DNA of 64,000 nucleotides from the NCBI GenBank assembly GCA_963666285.1, contig OY762711.1. One strand, given 5' to 3'. The DNA is from Sedimentisphaerales bacterium. GTDB taxonomy: Bacteria > Planctomycetota > Phycisphaerae > Sedimentisphaerales > SM23-30. The translations under genes and the position numbers were made by a program. Shown in pieces: positions 7,495-15,987 of the stretch. The notes under the pieces are model-generated. The model saw only the letters and a program-made list of their open reading frames with translations, was not told the origin of the DNA and ran no database searches. Positions within the stretch are counted from its first letter, which is position 1, and the number at the start of each line of letters is the position of its first letter.

Positions 7495-8577
7495 TTATTT
7501 TATTTTGCCTTCACTTTTTTGAGTTGCTTCAATTTGCTTAATAATCTTATCAAAATCGCTTTCAAAAATCCTATCCTGAACAATGCGGTATTTTTCAAAT
7601 TCACTTTCGGCATGAGCCCTGGCAATTTCAGCTGTAACCTTACCCGCATCCTGAAGTATCTCTCGGTCAGTTGCCTCGATGAATCTGTTCAAGCGAGTTT
7701 CCCAGTCCTGCATGGACATCGGAATCTTACGCATCGCCATATCTTCTGCTACATCCAGATAGGCCGAAACCAGCCTCTGTAATTGTACCATTTCATTTTC
7801 AGTCAGATAGTTTTTAGCCACACTTACATCGAACTTTTGTATTTTTCCATCCGGCGCGTCCTTCCATGTGGTCAAACCCATGTTTTGCTTTTGATGATCT
7901 GCTCTATCTACAATCACTTCCGCTGCTGTTTGTCCATGAATGGCCCAATGCAGCTTATTTTGAACCGTCGCAAAAAAACGTTTGGTAGCTTGAGCTGTCA
8001 CATCATAGTCGATGGCTGTTGAATAAATATCGGTGATTTTCTGATAGAATTTACGCTCACTCAGACGTATTTCCCTTATACGCTCCAATTGCTCTTCAAA
8101 ATACTGCTCAGTCAGGATGGAGCCGCCATTTTTTATGCGTTCATCATCCATCACATAGGCTTTGATTGTATACTCCTTAATAATGGTGGTTGCCCATTTA
8201 CGAAACTGCACGGCTCGCTCTGAGTTTACTTTATAACCAACAGCAATAATTGCCGAGAGATTGTAGTGCTTTGTGTTGTAGCTTTTGCCGTCAGTGGCAG
8301 TTATCCGAAAATTTTGGATAACTGAATCTTCCTGCAACTCGCTGTCACTAAATATCTTCTTTAAATGATAGTTAATTGTTCTTACATCAACATCATAGAG
8401 CGTTGCCATCATTTTCTGGGTCAGCCAAATATTCTCATTTGCATACACAGCTTCAACGCCGCCATCACCGCTGGCTGCAACAAATGTCAGGTATTCCGCA
8501 GCTGATGAACGAATGATAGCCCTCTCGTTTTTGTCAGGTTTATTTTCCGTTTTATTTGTATTGTTTTTCATAACCAA
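7495..8577 (-). CDS. rhuM: Virulence RhuM family DNA-binding protein
   Basis: ENIWLTQKMMATLY, HYNLSAIIAVGYKVNS, IRLSERKFYQKITDIY and QNKLHWAIHGQTAAE motifs. Confidence 0.9.
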   Translation of the reverse strand: MVMKNNTNKTENKPDKNERAIIRSSAAEYLTFVAASGDGGVEAVYANENIWLTQKMMATLYDVDVRTINYHLKKIFSDSELQEDSVIQNFRITATDGKSYNTKHYNLSAIIAVGYKVNSERAVQFRKWATTIIKEYTIKAYVMDDERIKNGGSILTEQYFEEQLERIREIRLSERKFYQKITDIYSTAIDYDVTAQATKRFFATVQNKLHWAIHGQTAAEVIVDRADHQKQNMGLTTWKDAPDGKIQKFDVSVAKNYLTENEMVQLQRLVSAYLDVAEDMAMRKIPMSMQDWETRLNRFIEATDREILQDAGKVTAEIARAHAESEFEKYRIVQDRIFESDFDKIIKQIEATQKSEGKIK

Positions 8578-9440: not shown

Positions 9441-10349
9441 TCACCAAAACATCATCCCCGTCCCCACAACTGCGATAATCGCCCCGATTATCTCCCGCAA
9501 ATTGACCTTTTCCTTGAACATGAAAATCGAAAACGGGATAATCGTCACCGGTATTATTGACATAATGGTACACGCGATGCCGGTCTCCGTCTTTTGTATC
9601 GCCAATAATGACAGGGATACCCCGATAAAAGTACCAAAAAATGTGCTGAACAGCACAAGTGCCATCAATTTCGGCTTGGTTACCAGCTCTCTCATCTGTC
9701 TCCACGGCCTTATATATATGGCTACCAGCGTAAACCCTGTCATGCCGGCAATTATTCTTATATGGGTTGCCGCTAATGCACTGTATTCCTCGCCCATCCC
9801 GTATTTGCTCAATATCAGACCTATTGCCTGGCCCAGCATGCCGATCGTCGCATATACTACCCCCTTAATCGGATGCTTAAACTTCTTTGTCCCGTTTTCG
9901 CGGGTCAATATTACCGCCGACACCCCGGAAGTTGTCATTATCATCCCGAAGATATGACGCATCGCCAGGGTCTCATCCAAAAGGAAATACCCGATAACTG
10001 CCGCGACCGGCGGCACAAGCGAGTATATCAGCATCGATGTTCTCGATCCGATTATCGAAAATGCCTTTAGCAGGAACAGATCGCCTATCACAAAACCGAT
10101 CAGCCCGGAAGCGAATAGCCAGAACCAGCATGAACCTGACGCATCTGTCGGAATTGCCAGCCCGCGGATAAAAAATGAAGAAACAGTGAAGAATATGAAC
10201 GCCAGGTACATCCTGAATATGTTTATCGCCAGCGTACTGGCTCTTTTAGATATATATTCCGAACATAAACATGTAATTGTCCAGAGTATTACCGTTACCA
10301 ATGCGGCTATCTCGCCCGTTTTACTCGTTATTGTTTCAGATATTTCCAT
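9441..10349 (-). CDS. DMT/EamA family transporter
   Basis: 302 aa, about 10 TM helices, two EamA-like repeats. Confidence 0.9.
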   Translation of the reverse strand: MEISETITSKTGEIAALVTVILWTITCLCSEYISKRASTLAINIFRMYLAFIFFTVSSFFIRGLAIPTDASGSCWFWLFASGLIGFVIGDLFLLKAFSIIGSRTSMLIYSLVPPVAAVIGYFLLDETLAMRHIFGMIMTTSGVSAVILTRENGTKKFKHPIKGVVYATIGMLGQAIGLILSKYGMGEEYSALAATHIRIIAGMTGFTLVAIYIRPWRQMRELVTKPKLMALVLFSTFFGTFIGVSLSLLAIQKTETGIACTIMSIIPVTIIPFSIFMFKEKVNLREIIGAIIAVVGTGMMFW

Positions 10350-10443
10350 ATAGACTGTTTTTGGGGTAAATGGTTGCTGACTAGTGTCTTTATCTGCAAT
10401 TCGGCATTATACCTTATCGTTGTATAAATAATGAAGAATATTT

Positions 10444-10623
10444 TAGAGCACTTTAATATCTTCTGTTCCGATTTATGCCTCTGTGAGGACGAGGCTGACG
10501 AAGAAGAAAACACAGAAATATTGATATATTACGAGTATTTCTGATGAAGTCAGCCGAAGCCGCAACAGGCAAAAAGCGAACACGCCACAAAGTGATGCGA
10601 AGCATAATAATTAAATTGCTCTA
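10444..10623. repeat. Palindromic MITE-like element, family 1, copy 1
   Basis: TIRs TAGAGCACTTTAAT / ATTAAATTGCTCTA; nested stems GGCTGAC/GTCAGCC and CAGAAATA/TATTTCTG; highly similar to 23506-23658. Confidence 0.8.
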
Positions 10624-10627
10624 ATAG

Positions 10628-10659
10628 AAAAGGCTATGAAGCAGTCAGCTTCATAGCCT
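10628..10659 (-). terminator. Rho-independent terminator of the SEC-C gene
   Basis: Perfect 12-bp stem AGGCTATGAAGC/GCTTCATAGCCT followed by TTTT on the minus strand. Confidence 0.8.
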
Positions 10660-10666
10660 GTATTAG

Positions 10667-10910
10667 TTAACGTGAATATTCATGGCGGTTTACGCCGTCA
10701 AAATCTGCCGGTCTTCAGACAGCATTTCTTGAAATAACCTCCCGCTGCCACATGGGCACAAGTCATTTCTACCGAGCTTTTCTTCCAGCAGCTTCTCGCC
10801 GTGAACGACTCTGGTTCCCTTTTTAACTTTTGTCTCTGATGGATATCCTCTGCGACGTTTGCTCATTGGCTGGTTAAAAGCAGTCCTTTTGATAATTATT
10901 TCTGGCCATG
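10667..10910 (-). CDS. Small SEC-C (zinc-binding) motif protein spread over several frames; core ORF 10690-10866; recoded gene or pseudogene
   Basis: Core [20 protein letters not shown]...[16 protein letters not shown]. The +1 frame continues [10 protein letters not shown], the next +1 frame [20 protein letters not shown] precedes the ATG at 10910. Confidence 0.75.
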
Positions 10911-11161
10911 ATACACCTCCGTAAAAAAGAGTATTCTTTCCATCCGGACACTTATCCGGATTTGCATGTATTGTATATGATTACTGCTGTATTGGAATAG
11001 AAAACTCCAATTATAACTGTTTTTTTAGAATATTACTCTATTGTTAAGCATAATGGATTAAATAATCTTCGTAATATCCTGTTTCGCAATACAAAATAAA
11101 TTTTTAGCTAGCCGCCTGCCCTGAGTTCATCGAAGGGCCGCGGTATTTCTTCCCTAATATT

Positions 11162-11201
11162 AAAAAAAAGCCGCGAATGCTTCTTCACATCCACGGCTTT
11201 T
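11162..11201 (-). terminator. Terminator downstream of gpmI
   Basis: AAAAGCCG...CGGCTTTT hairpin with A/T tracts. Confidence 0.6.
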
Positions 11202-11266
11202 ATGTATTTTGAAAATAGTTGTCGCGTTAGCGACACCGCAATTTTTCACTTTTCATTATTCGCTTT

Positions 11267-12832
11267 TCACTTCAAAAGGCTTTCACCGGTCATCTCTTCC
11301 GGCTTCTCCAGTCCCATAAGATCCAGGCACGTTGGTACAACATCAGCCAGTCTGCCGCCTTCACGCAGCTTGCTGTTCTTGTGCTCTTCATCCACAATGA
11401 TCAGCGGCACAGGGAAAGTCGTATGAGCGGTATATGGCCCGTTTGTACTCTCATCCCACATCAGCTCCAGGTTGCCGTGGTCCGCTGTTATCAACGCAGA
11501 GCCGCCGAGTGCCTTAACCTTATCGATTACCTTGCCAACACATTCATCAACCACTTCAGCTGCCTTAACCGCTGCATCCATTACGCCTGTATGCCCGACC
11601 ATGTCCGGGTTAGCGAAGTTTACGATAAATACATCGTATTCCTTACTGTCCAGTTTCTCAAGAACGGTATCGCACACCTCATAGGCCGACATCTCAGGTT
11701 TCAGGTCATATGTTTCCACCTTTGGCGATGGTACCAGTATCCTGTCTTCCAGTTCAAATGGATCTTCCTTATTATCATTGAAGAAGAAGGTCACATGAGC
11801 ATATTTTTCTGTCTCGGCACATCTGAACTGTTTCAGCCCATCAACACTTAGCAGTTCACCGGCTATGTTTTTCATCTTCGGCGGCTTGGGAAACGCCACT
11901 TTCGCCGGAATTGTCTTGTCATATTCTGTCATACAGATAAAGTCAACTTCAGGCTTGCTGCCGCGATCGAAACCGTCAAAGTCGGCATCAACAAACGCAC
12001 GTGTCAGTTCGCGAGGCCTGTCACCGCGGAAATTAAAGAATATTACCGCGTCACCATCATCAATTGTGGCGATTGGCTTACCGTCGGCTCCGACAATATT
12101 GGCCGGCTCGATAAATTCATCTGTCTTGCCGTCATCATAACTTGCCTGCATATATTCAATTGCATCTGTTGCAGTGGCACCTTTACCATGACGTATACAG
12201 CTGAACGCTCTTTCTACACGCTCCCATCTCTTGTCACGGTCCATCCCGTAGAATCTGCCGCCGACGGATGCTATTTTTCCGCAGCCGATCTCATCCAGTT
12301 TCGCCTGGATAGCGGTCAAATATCCTTTACCGCTGGTCGGAGGACTGTCGCGACCGTCCATCAGCGGATGAAGATATACTTCTTCCAGCCCGTTATCTTT
12401 ACACATCTGAACGAATGCATACAGGTGACCCAGCAGAGAATGCACTCCGATATCACTGGCAAGCCCGGTCAGATGGAGTTTGCTGCCATTTTTCTTACAA
12501 TTTGCGATCGCATCAAGCACAATCTGGTTCTTCTGGAACTCGCCGTCACGAATTGCCTTGGTCAGACGCACTGATTCCTGGTAAACTACCCGGCCGGCAC
12601 CTATATTCTGATGACCTACTTCACTGTTGCCCATGGTTCCATCTGGCAAACCAACGTCTTCACCGCTGGTCGCGATTAGAACATTTGGGTATTCTGCTCT
12701 AAGTTTGTCATCATAAGGCGTATTTGCTTTACGGGTTGCATCATATTTATACCATTCAGGGTTTGGGTTATGGCCCCAGCCGTCACGGATAATTAGTACA
12801 AAAGGTTTTGTTCTGAGTTTTATTTCTGTCAT
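11267..12832 (-). CDS. gpmI: 2,3-bisphosphoglycerate-independent phosphoglycerate mutase
   Basis: DGWG, MGNSEVGHQNIGAGR, AETEKYAHVTFF, NPDMVGHTG and TADHGN motifs; start placed at MTEIK after a GAGGA RBS. Confidence 0.96.
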   Translation of the reverse strand: MTEIKLRTKPFVLIIRDGWGHNPNPEWYKYDATRKANTPYDDKLRAEYPNVLIATSGEDVGLPDGTMGNSEVGHQNIGAGRVVYQESVRLTKAIRDGEFQKNQIVLDAIANCKKNGSKLHLTGLASDIGVHSLLGHLYAFVQMCKDNGLEEVYLHPLMDGRDSPPTSGKGYLTAIQAKLDEIGCGKIASVGGRFYGMDRDKRWERVERAFSCIRHGKGATATDAIEYMQASYDDGKTDEFIEPANIVGADGKPIATIDDGDAVIFFNFRGDRPRELTRAFVDADFDGFDRGSKPEVDFICMTEYDKTIPAKVAFPKPPKMKNIAGELLSVDGLKQFRCAETEKYAHVTFFFNDNKEDPFELEDRILVPSPKVETYDLKPEMSAYEVCDTVLEKLDSKEYDVFIVNFANPDMVGHTGVMDAAVKAAEVVDECVGKVIDKVKALGGSALITADHGNLELMWDESTNGPYTAHTTFPVPLIIVDEEHKNSKLREGGRLADVVPTCLDLMGLEKPEEMTGESLLK

Positions 12833-15540: not shown

Positions 15541-15569
15541 TTGACATAATAATTATTGATAATTAGTAT
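15541..15569 (+). promoter_or_regulatory. Sigma-70 promoter of the histone-H1-like gene
   Basis: TTGACA-N17-TAGTAT. Confidence 0.6.
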
Positions 15570-15639
15570 TAGTGTTTATAGTGATTATTATGTTTTTTTT
15601 ATTACACGTTTACCGTTGCCGGAAGGAGGTAACTCAACC

Positions 15640-15987
15640 ATGGCAGTAAAGAAAAAAGTTAAAAAAGTAGCTAAGAAAGCTGCAAAGAAAGCAGTTAAAA
15701 AGGTAGCTAAGAAAAAGGTAGCTAAGAAAAAGGTAGCTAAGAAAAAGGTAGCTAAGAAACCTGCGGCTAAGAAAGTTGCTAAGAAAAAAGTAGCTAAGAA
15801 GGCTGTAAAGAAAGCAACTAAGAAAGTTGCTAAGAAAAAGGTAGCTAAGAAACCTGCGGCTAAGAAAGTTGCTAAGAAAAAAGTAGCTAAGAAAGCTGTA
15901 AAGAAAGCAACTAAGAAAGTAGCTAAAAAAGCTGTTAAAAAAGTTGCTAAGAAAAAAGTAGCTAAAAAAGCTGCTAAGAAAAAATAA
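15640..15987 (+). CDS. Lys/Ala-rich histone H1-like nucleoid protein (115 aa)
   Basis: Almost entirely K/A/V pentapeptide repeats (VAKKK, PAAKK); GGAGGT RBS before the ATG at 15640. Confidence 0.88.
   Translation: MAVKKKVKKVAKKAAKKAVKKVAKKKVAKKKVAKKKVAKKPAAKKVAKKKVAKKAVKKATKKVAKKKVAKKPAAKKVAKKKVAKKAVKKATKKVAKKAVKKVAKKKVAKKAAKKK

What the first reader, a model, noticed from the sequence alone, without database searches (positions are those of the whole stretch)
10628..10921. Small SEC-C gene readable only through four serial +1 frameshifts at slippery/stop sites
Seen on the minus strand: a strong SD (GGAGGTG), then ATG GCC AGA AAA TAA. Skipping one nt at AAA-TAA (10896-10901) gives NYQKDCF. 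Skipping at TTT-TAA (10874-10879) enters [14 protein letters not shown]...[14 protein letters not shown]. Skipping at TTT-CAA (10729-10734) restores the canonical SEC-C end [10 protein letters not shown]. Skipping at TTT-TGA (10698-10703) gives [10 protein letters not shown], which stops 7 nt before a perfect terminator. The product is 79 aa. All four shifts are +1, three sit on UUU and three are followed by a stop. Established: prfB CUU-UGA, Euplotes AAA-UAR and influenza PA-X UUU-C are +1 shift sites of this kind. Only one other frameshift is evident in the 64 kb. Inference: a recoded gene whose full four-Cys zinc site is made only when termination or decoding is impaired, e.g. a translation-stress sensor. 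The third shift is best supported; the two 5' shifts could instead be one -1 event or a leader ORF with reinitiation at 10866.
Basis: partly seen in the sequence, partly recalled or inferred. Interest (0 to 1): 0.85.

Follow-up and report, generated by a model that had tools for sequence, protein, structure and literature searches.

The report
Triple-frameshift zinc-knuckle gene beside RNA repair
A tiny bacterial gene is broken at three phenylalanine (UUU) codons, as its relatives in several phyla are at two to four such codons, so its zinc-knuckle protein would be made only if ribosomes slip forward at each one, which likely makes it a switch that turns on with translation stress and is often placed ahead of RNA-repair genes.

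Summary
Real, but three shifts, not four. The first AAA-UAA shift is a miscount: the 11-codon leader (10909-10877) is one frame. Three +1 breaks at UUU-U/C (10879, 10734, 10703) give a 79-aa basic SEC-C protein. Short-read contigs match the locus exactly. All 153 parsed homologs (at least 6 phyla) are broken too, at UUU-Y codons. Reading every in-frame UUUY as one Phe yields the full protein in 122 of 144, mostly with three steps. Which sites are used changes between lineages, the shifted segments show a coding signature, and UUU-C is avoided off-target. This is conserved recoding, not decay. Homologs often lead RNA-repair genes (48 of 124) or sit in tRNA arrays. Their terminators lie unusually close to the final stop (44 of 67 within 12 nt, against 16 of 232 ordinary genes here). 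Likely mechanism: peptidyl-tRNA-Phe slips when A-site decoding is slow, three gates in series give a steep stress switch, and the output is the protein plus, at some loci, terminator read-through. No expression data; frameshifting is inferred. Not found in the papers searched. This scan noted the family before on another genome (e1-5201118).

The parts
10914..10920 (-). Shine-Dalgarno GGAGGTG of the gene
   Evidence: SD-linked starts found in 144 of 153 parsed loci
10877..10909 (-). Segment 1: 11-codon leader from ATG to the first UUU, one frame (no AAA-UAA shift)
10874..10879 (-). Shift site S1, UUU-UAA (+1)
   Evidence: of 153 loci: +1 in 103, +2 in 29, in frame in 12, no SD-linked start called in 9
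10735..10875 (-). Segment 2: Arg/Lys-rich core plus first half of the SEC-C knuckle (CPC); the piece that databases call as a 55-70 aa SEC-C protein
   Evidence: Pfam PF02810 E 1.1e-6 over profile positions 1-14 of 19 only; 1043 relatives
10738..10743 (-). prfB-like internal SD (GGGAGG) 3 nt before S2; present here, not conserved family-wide
   Evidence: -10.9 kcal/mol with the genome's anti-SD; SD word 2-4 nt before the codon in 6 of 63 S2-shifted loci
10729..10734 (-). Shift site S2, UUU-CAA (+1); completes the SEC-C with KKCC
   Evidence: shifted in 63 of 153, TTT+Y in 61 of those 63
10704..10730 (-). Segment 3: second half of the zinc knuckle (CC) and linker
   Evidence: synonymous share 0.42 in this frame against 0.14 and 0.14 in the others (48 distinct sequences)
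10698..10703 (-). Shift site S3, UUU-UGA (+1)
   Evidence: shifted in 99 of 153, TTT+Y in 95 of those 99
10667..10699 (-). Segment 4: conserved C-terminal DGxNR tail and final stop; a fourth family site (YF-RE) is unshifted here
   Evidence: synonymous share 0.48 against 0.14 and 0.09 (80 distinct sequences); S4 shifted in 129 of 153 loci
10623..10659 (-). Intrinsic terminator (12-bp stem, U tail; also terminator-like on the + strand), 7 nt after the final stop
11166..11201 (-). Terminator after the upstream gene; the SEC-C gene is likely its own transcription unit (no sigma-70 match found in 10300-11400)

Best explanation
This is a small conserved gene broken at three UUU-U/C codons, whose 79-aa basic zinc-knuckle (SEC-C) protein would be made only when the ribosome slips +1 at all three, likely as a switch that responds to translation stress. 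Shown from sequence: the breaks, their conservation, their restriction to in-frame UUU+Y, coding selection on every segment, a usual count of three with changing positions, and the link to RNA-repair genes and tRNA arrays. Inferred: peptidyl-tRNA-Phe(GAA) re-pairs from UUU to UUU/UUC when the next codon (stop, CGA, CAA and others) is decoded slowly, for example when tRNAs are cleaved or uncharged or ribosomes are inhibited. Three gates in series would make output rise roughly as the cube of the slip rate: near zero normally, steep under stress. Inferred outputs: (a) the full protein, a predicted nucleic-acid or ribosome-binding factor of the RNA-repair response that acts in trans (needed for this window and for loci with convergent neighbours); (b) where repair genes or tRNAs follow, a ribosome that reaches the last stop would cover the terminator 5-12 nt downstream and allow read-through.
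For: Breaks conserved in 153 of 153 parsed loci. Of 120 database proteins the script could classify 113, and only 1 of those has both CC and the DG tail in frame. The rule 'every in-frame TTTY = one Phe' gives the full protein in 122 of 144 loci (2 steps: 12; 3: 91; 4: 19); AAAR, CCCN, GGGN or no rule give 0 of 144. In a separately drawn set, 14 of 17 loci passed; 2 of the 17 overlap or closely resemble earlier loci. The three loci that the script's anchor missed all carry the breaks, and L247 uses a new fifth UUU-U site yet still totals three. S2/S3/S4 patterns among 147 loci: 011 80, 101 48, 110 10, 010 6, 100 3; 111 and 00x never occur (independence would expect about 35 and 30). On a poorly resolved tree the well-supported branches force 3-4 changes for each main pattern. 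Every junction has natural in-frame variants giving the same peptide (S1 12, S2 89, S3 53, S4 20). Off-target avoidance: the Phe of G-F-P is TTC 80 times and TTT 6 times, against TTC-Y 807 and TTT-Y 630 in neighbouring ORFs. Context: co-oriented Hen1, Thg1, AAA_33 kinase, TROVE/Ro60, RNA ligase, slipin, RlaP or ARH within 1.4 kb downstream in 48 of 124 loci, opposite strand in 1; tRNA within 1.5 kb in 33 of 152. Stop-to-stem distance 12 nt or less in 44 of 67 homolog terminators, against 16 of 232 in own-genome genes and 11 of 50 in neighbouring ORFs. Published: UUU_Ynn is +1 shift-prone in bacteria even without a stop (PMC5009743, passage). Low Gln-tRNA makes wild-type peptidyl-tRNA-Phe slip at UUU-CAA, the exact S2 sequence (PMC3617221, passages). 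tRNA arrays, rtcB and hen1-pnkP are induced by translational stress in Anabaena (PMC8421152).
Against: No RNA, ribosome-profiling or proteomic data: frameshifting, its rate and its trigger are untested. 22 of 144 loci fail the obligatory rule, some through wrong start calls or sequence errors and 6 through an off-target UUU-C in the core; 3 more such cases. So slipping is context-dependent, not automatic. The count is not strictly three (2 in 12 loci, 4 in 19). In this window no repair gene follows (a repeat and an EamA transporter do), and the genome's RtcR/RtcA/RtcB/tRNA-array operon is about 4.6 Mb away. 17 of 44 tested opposite-strand ORFs after the gene are real convergent genes, including at L008 and L024, which share this window's shift pattern, so read-through cannot be the universal output. 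Failing the last shift stops more than 12 nt before the hairpin in only 46 of 76 loci; in 23 the ribosome would run into it anyway. The short stop-to-stem distance could also reflect relaxed constraint because ribosomes rarely get there. The samples are rich in Planctomycetota and kin are not independent. The protein's partner and activity are unknown.
Confidence: 0.6

Rival explanations
1. The gene is mainly a cis-acting attenuator leader. The ribosome that completes all shifts, perhaps arrested by the conserved DGxNR...YFR tail at the last stop, blocks the terminator and lets transcription run into repair genes or tRNAs; the protein is secondary.
For: 22 of 37 loci with a co-oriented annotated gene (repair genes, plus DinB in 4) within 700 nt have a terminator between them. 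Failing an earlier shift stops more than 12 nt before the hairpin in 153 of 163 cases, and the last shift often adds only 2-4 residues while moving the stop 7-13 nt closer to the stem. Coupled ribosomes antiterminate intrinsic terminators (PMC7858274, passage). Planctomycetota are not among the phyla classed as runaway transcribers (PMC13323073, passage), and own-genome genes avoid short distances.
Against: 17 loci have a real convergent gene next, so there is nothing to read into. 23 of 76 last-shift failures run into the hairpin anyway. The 45-residue core and four Cys are far more conserved than a spacer needs (synonymous share 0.69). In this window only a repeat and EamA follow.
Confidence: 0.2
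2. The shifts are a fixed-ratio throttle that keeps a potent or harmful small protein at very low copy number, with no sensing role.
For: UUU-Y is intrinsically shift-prone (PMC5009743); a product of three small rates gives a very low constant level; A-site codons are mixed.
Against: A weak promoter or RBS would do this more simply, yet the SD is strong in most loci. The gene sits with stress-induced repair genes. Six-T and seven-T versions of S1 (one versus two steps) coexist in close relatives, which fits high slip rates in an induced state better than tiny fixed ones.
Confidence: 0.12
3. The frame is restored without ribosomal slippage: by a quadruplet tRNA-Phe(GAAA), by U-deletion editing or cut-and-ligate of the mRNA through the neighbouring repair enzymes, or by RNA-polymerase slippage.
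For: A plain four-base reading fits 122 of 144 loci; ligases and end-healing enzymes are neighbours; ARAGORN called one GAAA-anticodon tRNA in L147.
Against: The L147 element has a broken acceptor stem and a poor D arm, and a scan of the own genome and all loci found no convincing 8-nt-loop tRNA-Phe; the genome's single tRNA-Phe has a normal 7-nt loop. Three T's suffice, while A-runs of 4-5 in the core of 97 of 153 loci are never broken, and the same TTTY out of codon register is left unshifted in 6 loci. This points to decoding, not the polymerase.
Confidence: 0.06
4. A pseudogene, homopolymer assembly errors, or two unrelated mini-ORFs with reinitiation at 10866.
For: Breaks lie in short T-runs; an ATG exists at 10866; the gene is patchy (among 40 relatives only G036 has a full match).
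Against: Identical in short-read contigs; same breaks in 153 of 153 loci from at least 6 phyla; purifying selection after the shifts; internal start absent in 55 of 147 loci.
Confidence: 0.02

Closest known systems
prfB (release factor 2) programmed +1 frameshift, CUU-UGA
   Same: Chromosomal bacterial gene, short 0-frame leader ending at a shift codon plus stop, +1 P-site slip used as a sensor (PMC5009743, passages). Here S2 even has an SD-like GGGAGG 3 nt upstream.
   Different: One shift versus usually three in series; Leu CUU versus Phe UUU; only UGA versus UGA, UAG, UAA and sense codons; internal SD not conserved (6 of 63 at S2, 3 of 103 at S1, 4 of 99 at S3, 0 of 129 at S4); the product is not a release factor.
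ermCL ketolide-induced frameshift and pheL leader frameshifting
   Same: A frameshift in a leader ORF moves the ribosome into downstream RNA structure and can switch on the next gene (PMC5009743, passage).
   Different: ermCL: single drug-induced shift, translational attenuation, no conserved trans-frame protein. pheL shifting was judged incidental. Here the trans-frame product is a conserved 79-aa zinc-knuckle protein and the element is a transcription terminator.
UUU-Y +1 sites: E. coli argI, Yersinia yopN-tyeA, influenza PA-X; UUU-CAA reporter in Salmonella
   Same: Same slippery tetranucleotide; at UUU-CAA peptidyl-tRNA-Phe slips when Gln-tRNA is scarce (PMC5009743; PMC3617221).
   Different: Those are single, low-level or error-type events; none is a conserved serial array.
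Euplotes and mitochondrial genes with several frameshifts
   Same: Several +1 shifts needed for one protein (2 in an Euplotes gene, 10-12 in mitochondrial genes; PMC5009743, passage).
   Different: Eukaryotic or organellar, near-constitutive or corrective, with altered decoding machinery. Here the host code looks standard (12,036 TTT-Y codons in ordinary long ORFs) and the shifts are confined to one gene.
SEC-C motif proteins (PF02810; SecA metal-binding domain, YchJ, YecA/UPF0149)
   Same: C-terminal CPCGSG...KKCC knuckle; matches solved SecA and YchJ C-terminal peptides (E 3.5e-8 to 9e-6).
   Different: Only the roughly 20-residue knuckle is shared; all NCBIfam family scores are far below cut-off. 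The basic N-terminal part and the DGxNR tail have no solved relative. Databases hold only the truncated single-frame pieces.
Translation-stress regulons: Anabaena trn L-array/TrcR, and RtcR-RtcAB
   Same: Same cargo of tRNA arrays, HNH, slipin, RtcB, Hen1-Pnkp, GNAT and DMT genes, induced by ribosome inhibitors (PMC8421152; PMC10272220).
   Different: Those are controlled by DNA-binding regulators; 'SEC-C' occurs 0 times in either text and no frameshift-gated gene appears in the passages read.

Membership tests
Evolutionarily selected programmed +1 ribosomal frameshift | Frame break conserved in position and direction across distant homologs | tested here: met
   153 of 153 parsed loci broken; at least 6 phyla
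Evolutionarily selected programmed +1 ribosomal frameshift | Conserved shift-prone motif allowing re-pairing in the new frame | tested here: met
   TTT+Y at 61 of 63 S2 and 95 of 99 S3 shifts
Evolutionarily selected programmed +1 ribosomal frameshift | Protein-coding selection in the new frame | tested here: met
   synonymous share 0.42 and 0.48 in the recoded frames, 0.09-0.14 in the others
Evolutionarily selected programmed +1 ribosomal frameshift | Trans-frame product or shifted ribosomes shown experimentally | not testable with these tools
   no RNA run listed; needs reporters, MS or Ribo-seq
prfB-type autoregulatory frameshift | CUU-UGA site sensing one release factor | tested here: not met
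   UUU sites; the following codon is UGA 93, UAG 58, UAA 12 or sense 209 of 372 steps
prfB-type autoregulatory frameshift | Internal SD about 3 nt upstream of the shift codon | tested here: not met
   present at this window's S2 but in only 6 of 63, 3 of 103, 4 of 99 and 0 of 129 shifted sites at S2, S1, S3 and S4
Ribosome-controlled transcription attenuator | Intrinsic terminator within ribosome reach of the leader's stop | tested here: met
   7 nt here; 12 nt or less in 44 of 67 homologs against 16 of 232 controls; the 12-nt threshold is recalled from Johnson et al. 2020
Ribosome-controlled transcription attenuator | Regulated co-oriented genes directly downstream | tested here: inconclusive
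   repair genes in 48 of 124 homologs, convergent genes in 17; here only a repeat and EamA
Ribosome-controlled transcription attenuator | Read-through depends on ribosome position | not testable with these tools
   in silico, earlier failures stop short in 153 of 163 but last-shift failures in only 46 of 76
SEC-C motif (PF02810) | Profile match above cut-off with four metal ligands | tested here: met
   28.8 bits against cut-off 20.4 for the first half; the last two Cys are supplied after S2; solved SecA and YchJ knuckles matched
SEC-C motif (PF02810) | Binds Zn or Fe | not testable with these tools
   inferred from the motif only
YecA/UPF0149 or YchJ/UPF0225 (database labels of the truncated pieces) | Full-length family model above cut-off, N-terminal domain present | tested here: not met
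   NCBIfam scores 26-34 bits against cut-offs 68-158, knuckle only
Quadruplet decoding by a frameshift-suppressor tRNA | tRNA-Phe gene with an 8-nt anticodon loop in the carrier genome | tested here: not met
   single canonical tRNA-Phe(GAA) in G000; the L147 candidate is degenerate; other genomes were checked only within fetched loci

The most novel reading that the evidence does not exclude
A new class of bacterial regulator: a serial-frameshift AND gate that reads out ribosome frame-keeping at tRNA-Phe directly. Selection holds the number of gates near three while their positions turn over, and full passage both makes a zinc-knuckle effector and, by parking the ribosome on the terminator, switches on RNA-repair operons, Ro60/Y-RNA and spare tRNA arrays after tRNA or ribosome damage.
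Probability: 0.35. Interest if true: 0.93.

Novelty: new variant of a known kind. Interest (0 to 1): 0.82.

Why it matters
Regulatory +1 frameshifting in bacterial chromosomes is known from very few genes, each with one shift. A family in which two to four (mostly three) shifts are kept across phyla, with sites swapped but the count nearly held, is a natural experiment on how cells build a steep response from an error rate. It offers a ready-made reporter of translation fidelity and a testable answer to how RNA-repair operons and spare tRNA arrays are switched on where they carry no dedicated regulator. More than a thousand database entries for this family appear to be truncated or out-of-frame pieces of the real protein.

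Tried and rejected
Four-shift reading and AAA-UAA site: rejected. Quadruplet tRNA-Phe: one GAAA call in L147 is degenerate, none in G000. Rfam scan of 10300-11350: nothing near a gathering score. Sigma-70 promoter scan: 0 sites. The TCCGGA palindrome upstream of the gene: its other exact-pattern copies lie inside a coding gene on the opposite strand, so it is not taken as an operator. Conserved prfB-like internal SD: not family-wide (one search used a wrong anti-SD and is superseded). AlphaFold2 model of a natural in-frame relative (P0090, alignment A2, 33 rows): mean pLDDT 50, pTM 0.34, unusable, so no fold search was run; ESM Atlas gave only SEC-C clusters, TM under 0.5 by query. No RNA holder listed, which says nothing on expression. 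Phage records: no match; plasmids: 2 records; viral contigs: 3 full-length matches among 10 loci. No complex prediction was sent, because no single partner is conserved. The hairpin finder is heuristic (it missed this window's own hairpin and misplaces some stems); one search is the better count. Rows dropped: 12 of 165 loci (3 no anchor, 1 contig end, 8 motif not parsed; the 8 printed also show breaks or decay), 9 without an SD-linked start, 6 with unclear S2-S4 calls. Literature searches that found no description of the family: and a term search in PMC3711429 (main text only; its supplementary cluster lists were not seen and could hold this family). A 2016 RNA-repair genomics review (recalled, Burroughs and Aravind) is not held and could mention the gene as a neighbour.

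Full report
OBSERVATION. On the minus strand the SD (10920-10914) and ATG (10909) open an 11-codon frame that ends at UUU-UAA (10879-10874). Reading in-frame TTTY as one Phe takes three steps (F11, F59, F69) and gives a 79-aa product ending at 10667 (P0123). A 12-bp hairpin with a U tail starts 7 nt later. Contigs of two runs of one sample, possibly the source sample, match 10578-11140 with no difference or gap, so the breaks are in the DNA. The pattern alone is not rare enough to convince: 9 of 1217 short SD-led ORFs of this genome extend the same way.

HOMOLOGS. The middle piece found 1043 proteins, 354 confirmed GTDB stretches (80 kept), 587 metagenome stretches (80 kept) and 3 full-length viral-contig matches. 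Of the 120 listed proteins the script classified 113, and only 1 of those holds both the CC and the DG tail in frame. I parsed 153 of 165 loci (the window included); 12 were dropped. Four family sites emerge: S1 (leader-core), S2 (F-KxCC), S3 (F-DG) and S4 (YF-RE). No locus is in frame at both S2 and S3. S1 is +1 in 103, +2 in 29, in frame in 12 and uncalled in 9; S2 is shifted in 63, S3 in 99, S4 in 129. Named loci cover Planctomycetota (61), Acidobacteriota (9), Armatimonadota, Pseudomonadota, Vulcanimicrobiota and Actinomycetota; 79 have no phylum. The gene is patchy: 13 of 201 genomes of the own phylum, 6 of 251 and 2 of 251 in two other phyla (each count includes the seed genome), and a full match in 1 of 40 close relatives.

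THE RULE. Treating every in-frame TTTY as one step yields the whole protein in 122 of 144 loci with an SD-linked start (12 with two steps, 91 with three, 19 with four). AAAR, CCCN, GGGN or no rule yield 0; TTTN 90; TTYY 42. The 22 failures include wrong start calls, likely sequence errors and 6 off-target UUU-C codons. In separately drawn genomes 14 of 17 loci pass and 3 fail on the same off-target codon; 2 of the 17 duplicate or closely resemble earlier loci. The 3 loci that script missed are all broken, and L247 uses a new site in the core while leaving S3 and S4 in frame, again totalling three. Among 147 loci S2/S3/S4 read 011 (80), 101 (48), 110 (10, this window), 010 (6) or 100 (3), never 111 or 00x, where independence would give about 35 and 30. 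Kin inflate this, but on a weakly resolved tree of the in-frame core the well-supported branches still force 3-4 changes for each main pattern. Segments reached through a shift keep a coding signature (synonymous share 0.42 and 0.48 in the recoded frame, 0.09-0.14 in the others). The off-path Phe of G-F-P is TTC 80 times and TTT 6 times, against 807 to 630 for Phe-Y pairs in neighbouring ORFs. A pseudogene or assembly error is thereby excluded.

WHICH MACHINE. The signal is tied to the codon: TTT+Y precedes 61 of 63 S2 and 95 of 99 S3 shifts, three T's suffice, A-runs of 4-5 in 97 of 153 cores are never broken, and the same four letters out of register are left alone in 6 loci. This argues against polymerase slippage. 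A quadruplet tRNA was sought: ARAGORN's one GAAA call (L147) is degenerate and the genome's only tRNA-Phe is canonical. The codon after UUU is a stop in 163 of 372 steps (UGA 93, UAG 58, UAA 12) and otherwise UUU 92, CGA 49, CAA 42, CAG 9 and rarer ones, so no single release factor is sensed. A prfB-like internal SD exists at this window's S2 but in few homologs. Papers support P-site slippage: UUU_Ynn is shift-prone in bacteria without a stop (PMC5009743, passages), and scarce Gln-tRNA makes wild-type peptidyl-tRNA-Phe slip at UUU-CAA (PMC3617221, passages). That the same happens here is inference.

CONTEXT. Of 124 homolog loci with at least 700 nt downstream, 48 have a co-oriented repair-type gene within 1.4 kb (Thg1 11, Hen1 10, AAA_33 10, RNA ligase 9, TROVE, slipin, HD-AAA, RlaP, ARH) and 1 an opposite one; 5 have DinB. 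33 of 152 loci have a tRNA within 1.5 kb, many being arrays with the gene inside. In three TROVE loci the spacer matches RF01656 just above its gathering score; that this family is Y-RNA-like is recalled. The separately drawn loci repeat the theme in six (L231 ARH, L232 RlaP, L233 ligase-kinase-Hen1, L234 ligase, L235 kinase-Thg1, L236 kinase). In Anabaena such arrays, rtcB and hen1-pnkP are induced by translational stress (PMC8421152, passages and section 22; PMC10272220, passages). Against a purely local role: this window's gene is followed by a genome-wide repeat and an EamA transporter, while the genome's RtcR-tRNA array-slipin-RtcA-RtcB operon lies at C1:5.22 Mb (RtcR, RtcA and the PrfH-like ORF named from recalled motifs). 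17 of 44 tested opposite-strand ORFs are real convergent genes, including at L008 and L024, which share this window's shift pattern.

TERMINATOR GEOMETRY. 67 of 145 loci have a terminator-like hairpin within 120 nt, and 44 of the 67 start within 12 nt of the final stop. In ordinary genes of this genome 16 of 232 do (900 sampled, median 38 nt), and in neighbouring ORFs 11 of 50. Coupled ribosomes mask terminators that close (PMC7858274, passages; the 12-nt figure is recalled), and Planctomycetota are not listed among runaway transcribers (PMC13323073, passages). 22 of 37 loci with an annotated co-oriented gene within 700 nt have the terminator in between. Failing an early shift leaves the ribosome more than 12 nt short in 153 of 163 cases; failing the last does so in 46 of 76, lands within 12 nt in 7 and runs through in 23. 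So attenuation is plausible at a subset. The short distance also fits the simpler idea that ribosomes rarely reach the last stop.

THE PROTEIN. It has a basic Arg/Lys-rich start, a SEC-C knuckle (PF02810; solved SecA and YchJ peptides) and a conserved DGxNR...YFR tail. No full-length family fits and the structure model is unusable. In 89 of 153 loci the four Cys are complete without an S2 shift, so the element that is always gated is the tail. Nucleic-acid or ribosome binding is a prediction from charge, knuckle and context.

MECHANISM. Shown: breaks, conservation, codon specificity, coding selection, count, context and terminator spacing. Inferred: P-site +1 slippage of tRNA-Phe driven by slow A-site events; a roughly cubic response; a trans-acting product; read-through at operon-leading copies. 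Confidence is about 0.9 for programmed recoding, 0.85 for ribosomal slippage and 0.6 for the whole stress-switch reading.

NOVELTY. It works like prfB or ermCL recoding but fails their defining features, and multi-shift genes in the review passages I read are ciliate, mitochondrial or retroviral. Nine paper searches and a term search of PMC3711429 found no description; one relevant review is not held and no supplements were read. This scan reported the family earlier on another genome (e1-5201118), after my own reading was on record; it agrees but is not independent support. The terminator spacing, the 2-of-3 pattern, the fifth site and the off-target avoidance do not appear in the lines shown for that note. 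Verdict: real, a new variant of programmed +1 recoding, interest 0.82.

Noticed in passing
window 10440-10625: Genome-wide interspersed repeat between the terminator and EamA: read depth about 25 times the flanks with many variant copies; its end matches six other places. A second repeat lies around 11100-11275.
   Followed up: partly
G000 C1:5220400-5231740: Complete Rtc-like stress operon: divergent RtcR-like activator, sigma-54-like promoter, 9-tRNA array with an embedded slipin gene, RtcA-like, GFA-like, RtcB (PF01139), PcfJ-like and PrfH-like ORFs; a DinB lies about 6 kb away. No Hen1, Thg1, TROVE or RNA-ligase match in this genome with the queries used.
   Followed up: partly
L136:2176-2246, L139:6217-6290, L195:2413-2482 (similar in L148, L158, L171, L186, L188, L190): Conserved ~70-nt element between the SEC-C stop and the Ro60/TROVE gene; matches RF01656 just over gathering; candidate undescribed bacterial Y-RNA-like RNA.
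   Followed up: partly
L016, L057, L059, L121, L129, L144 (just after the gene): Inside tRNA arrays the gene is followed by a hairpin 5-15 nt after the stop and then tRNA-Cys; the arrays are rich in tRNA-Arg isoacceptors, matching the frequent CGA codon after UUU.
   Followed up: no
L147:4235-4306 and L146:4409-4484: ARAGORN calls with four-base anticodons (GAAA, degenerate; CTGT, in an otherwise well-formed cloverleaf).
   Followed up: partly
L198, L199, L200 (viral contigs); plasmids CP114562.1, CP114554.1: The gene also occurs on viral contigs (L198 and L199 within tRNA arrays) and on two Manganitrophus plasmids where it is unannotated.
   Followed up: partly
L013, L035, L127, L133, L167: In these loci (Acidobacteriota where named) a DinB polymerase lies next to the gene, apparently with its own promoter.
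   Followed up: no
window 7495-8577 (-) and 15556-15987 (+): A RhuM-family protein (PF13310) and a Lys/Ala-rich histone-like repeat protein lie nearby; no link seen.
   Followed up: no
G000 C1, at least 9 places (e.g. 908922, 1129968, 589903): A repeated element carries a strong SD and a short MYVDIRNN-like ORF of variable length.
   Followed up: no
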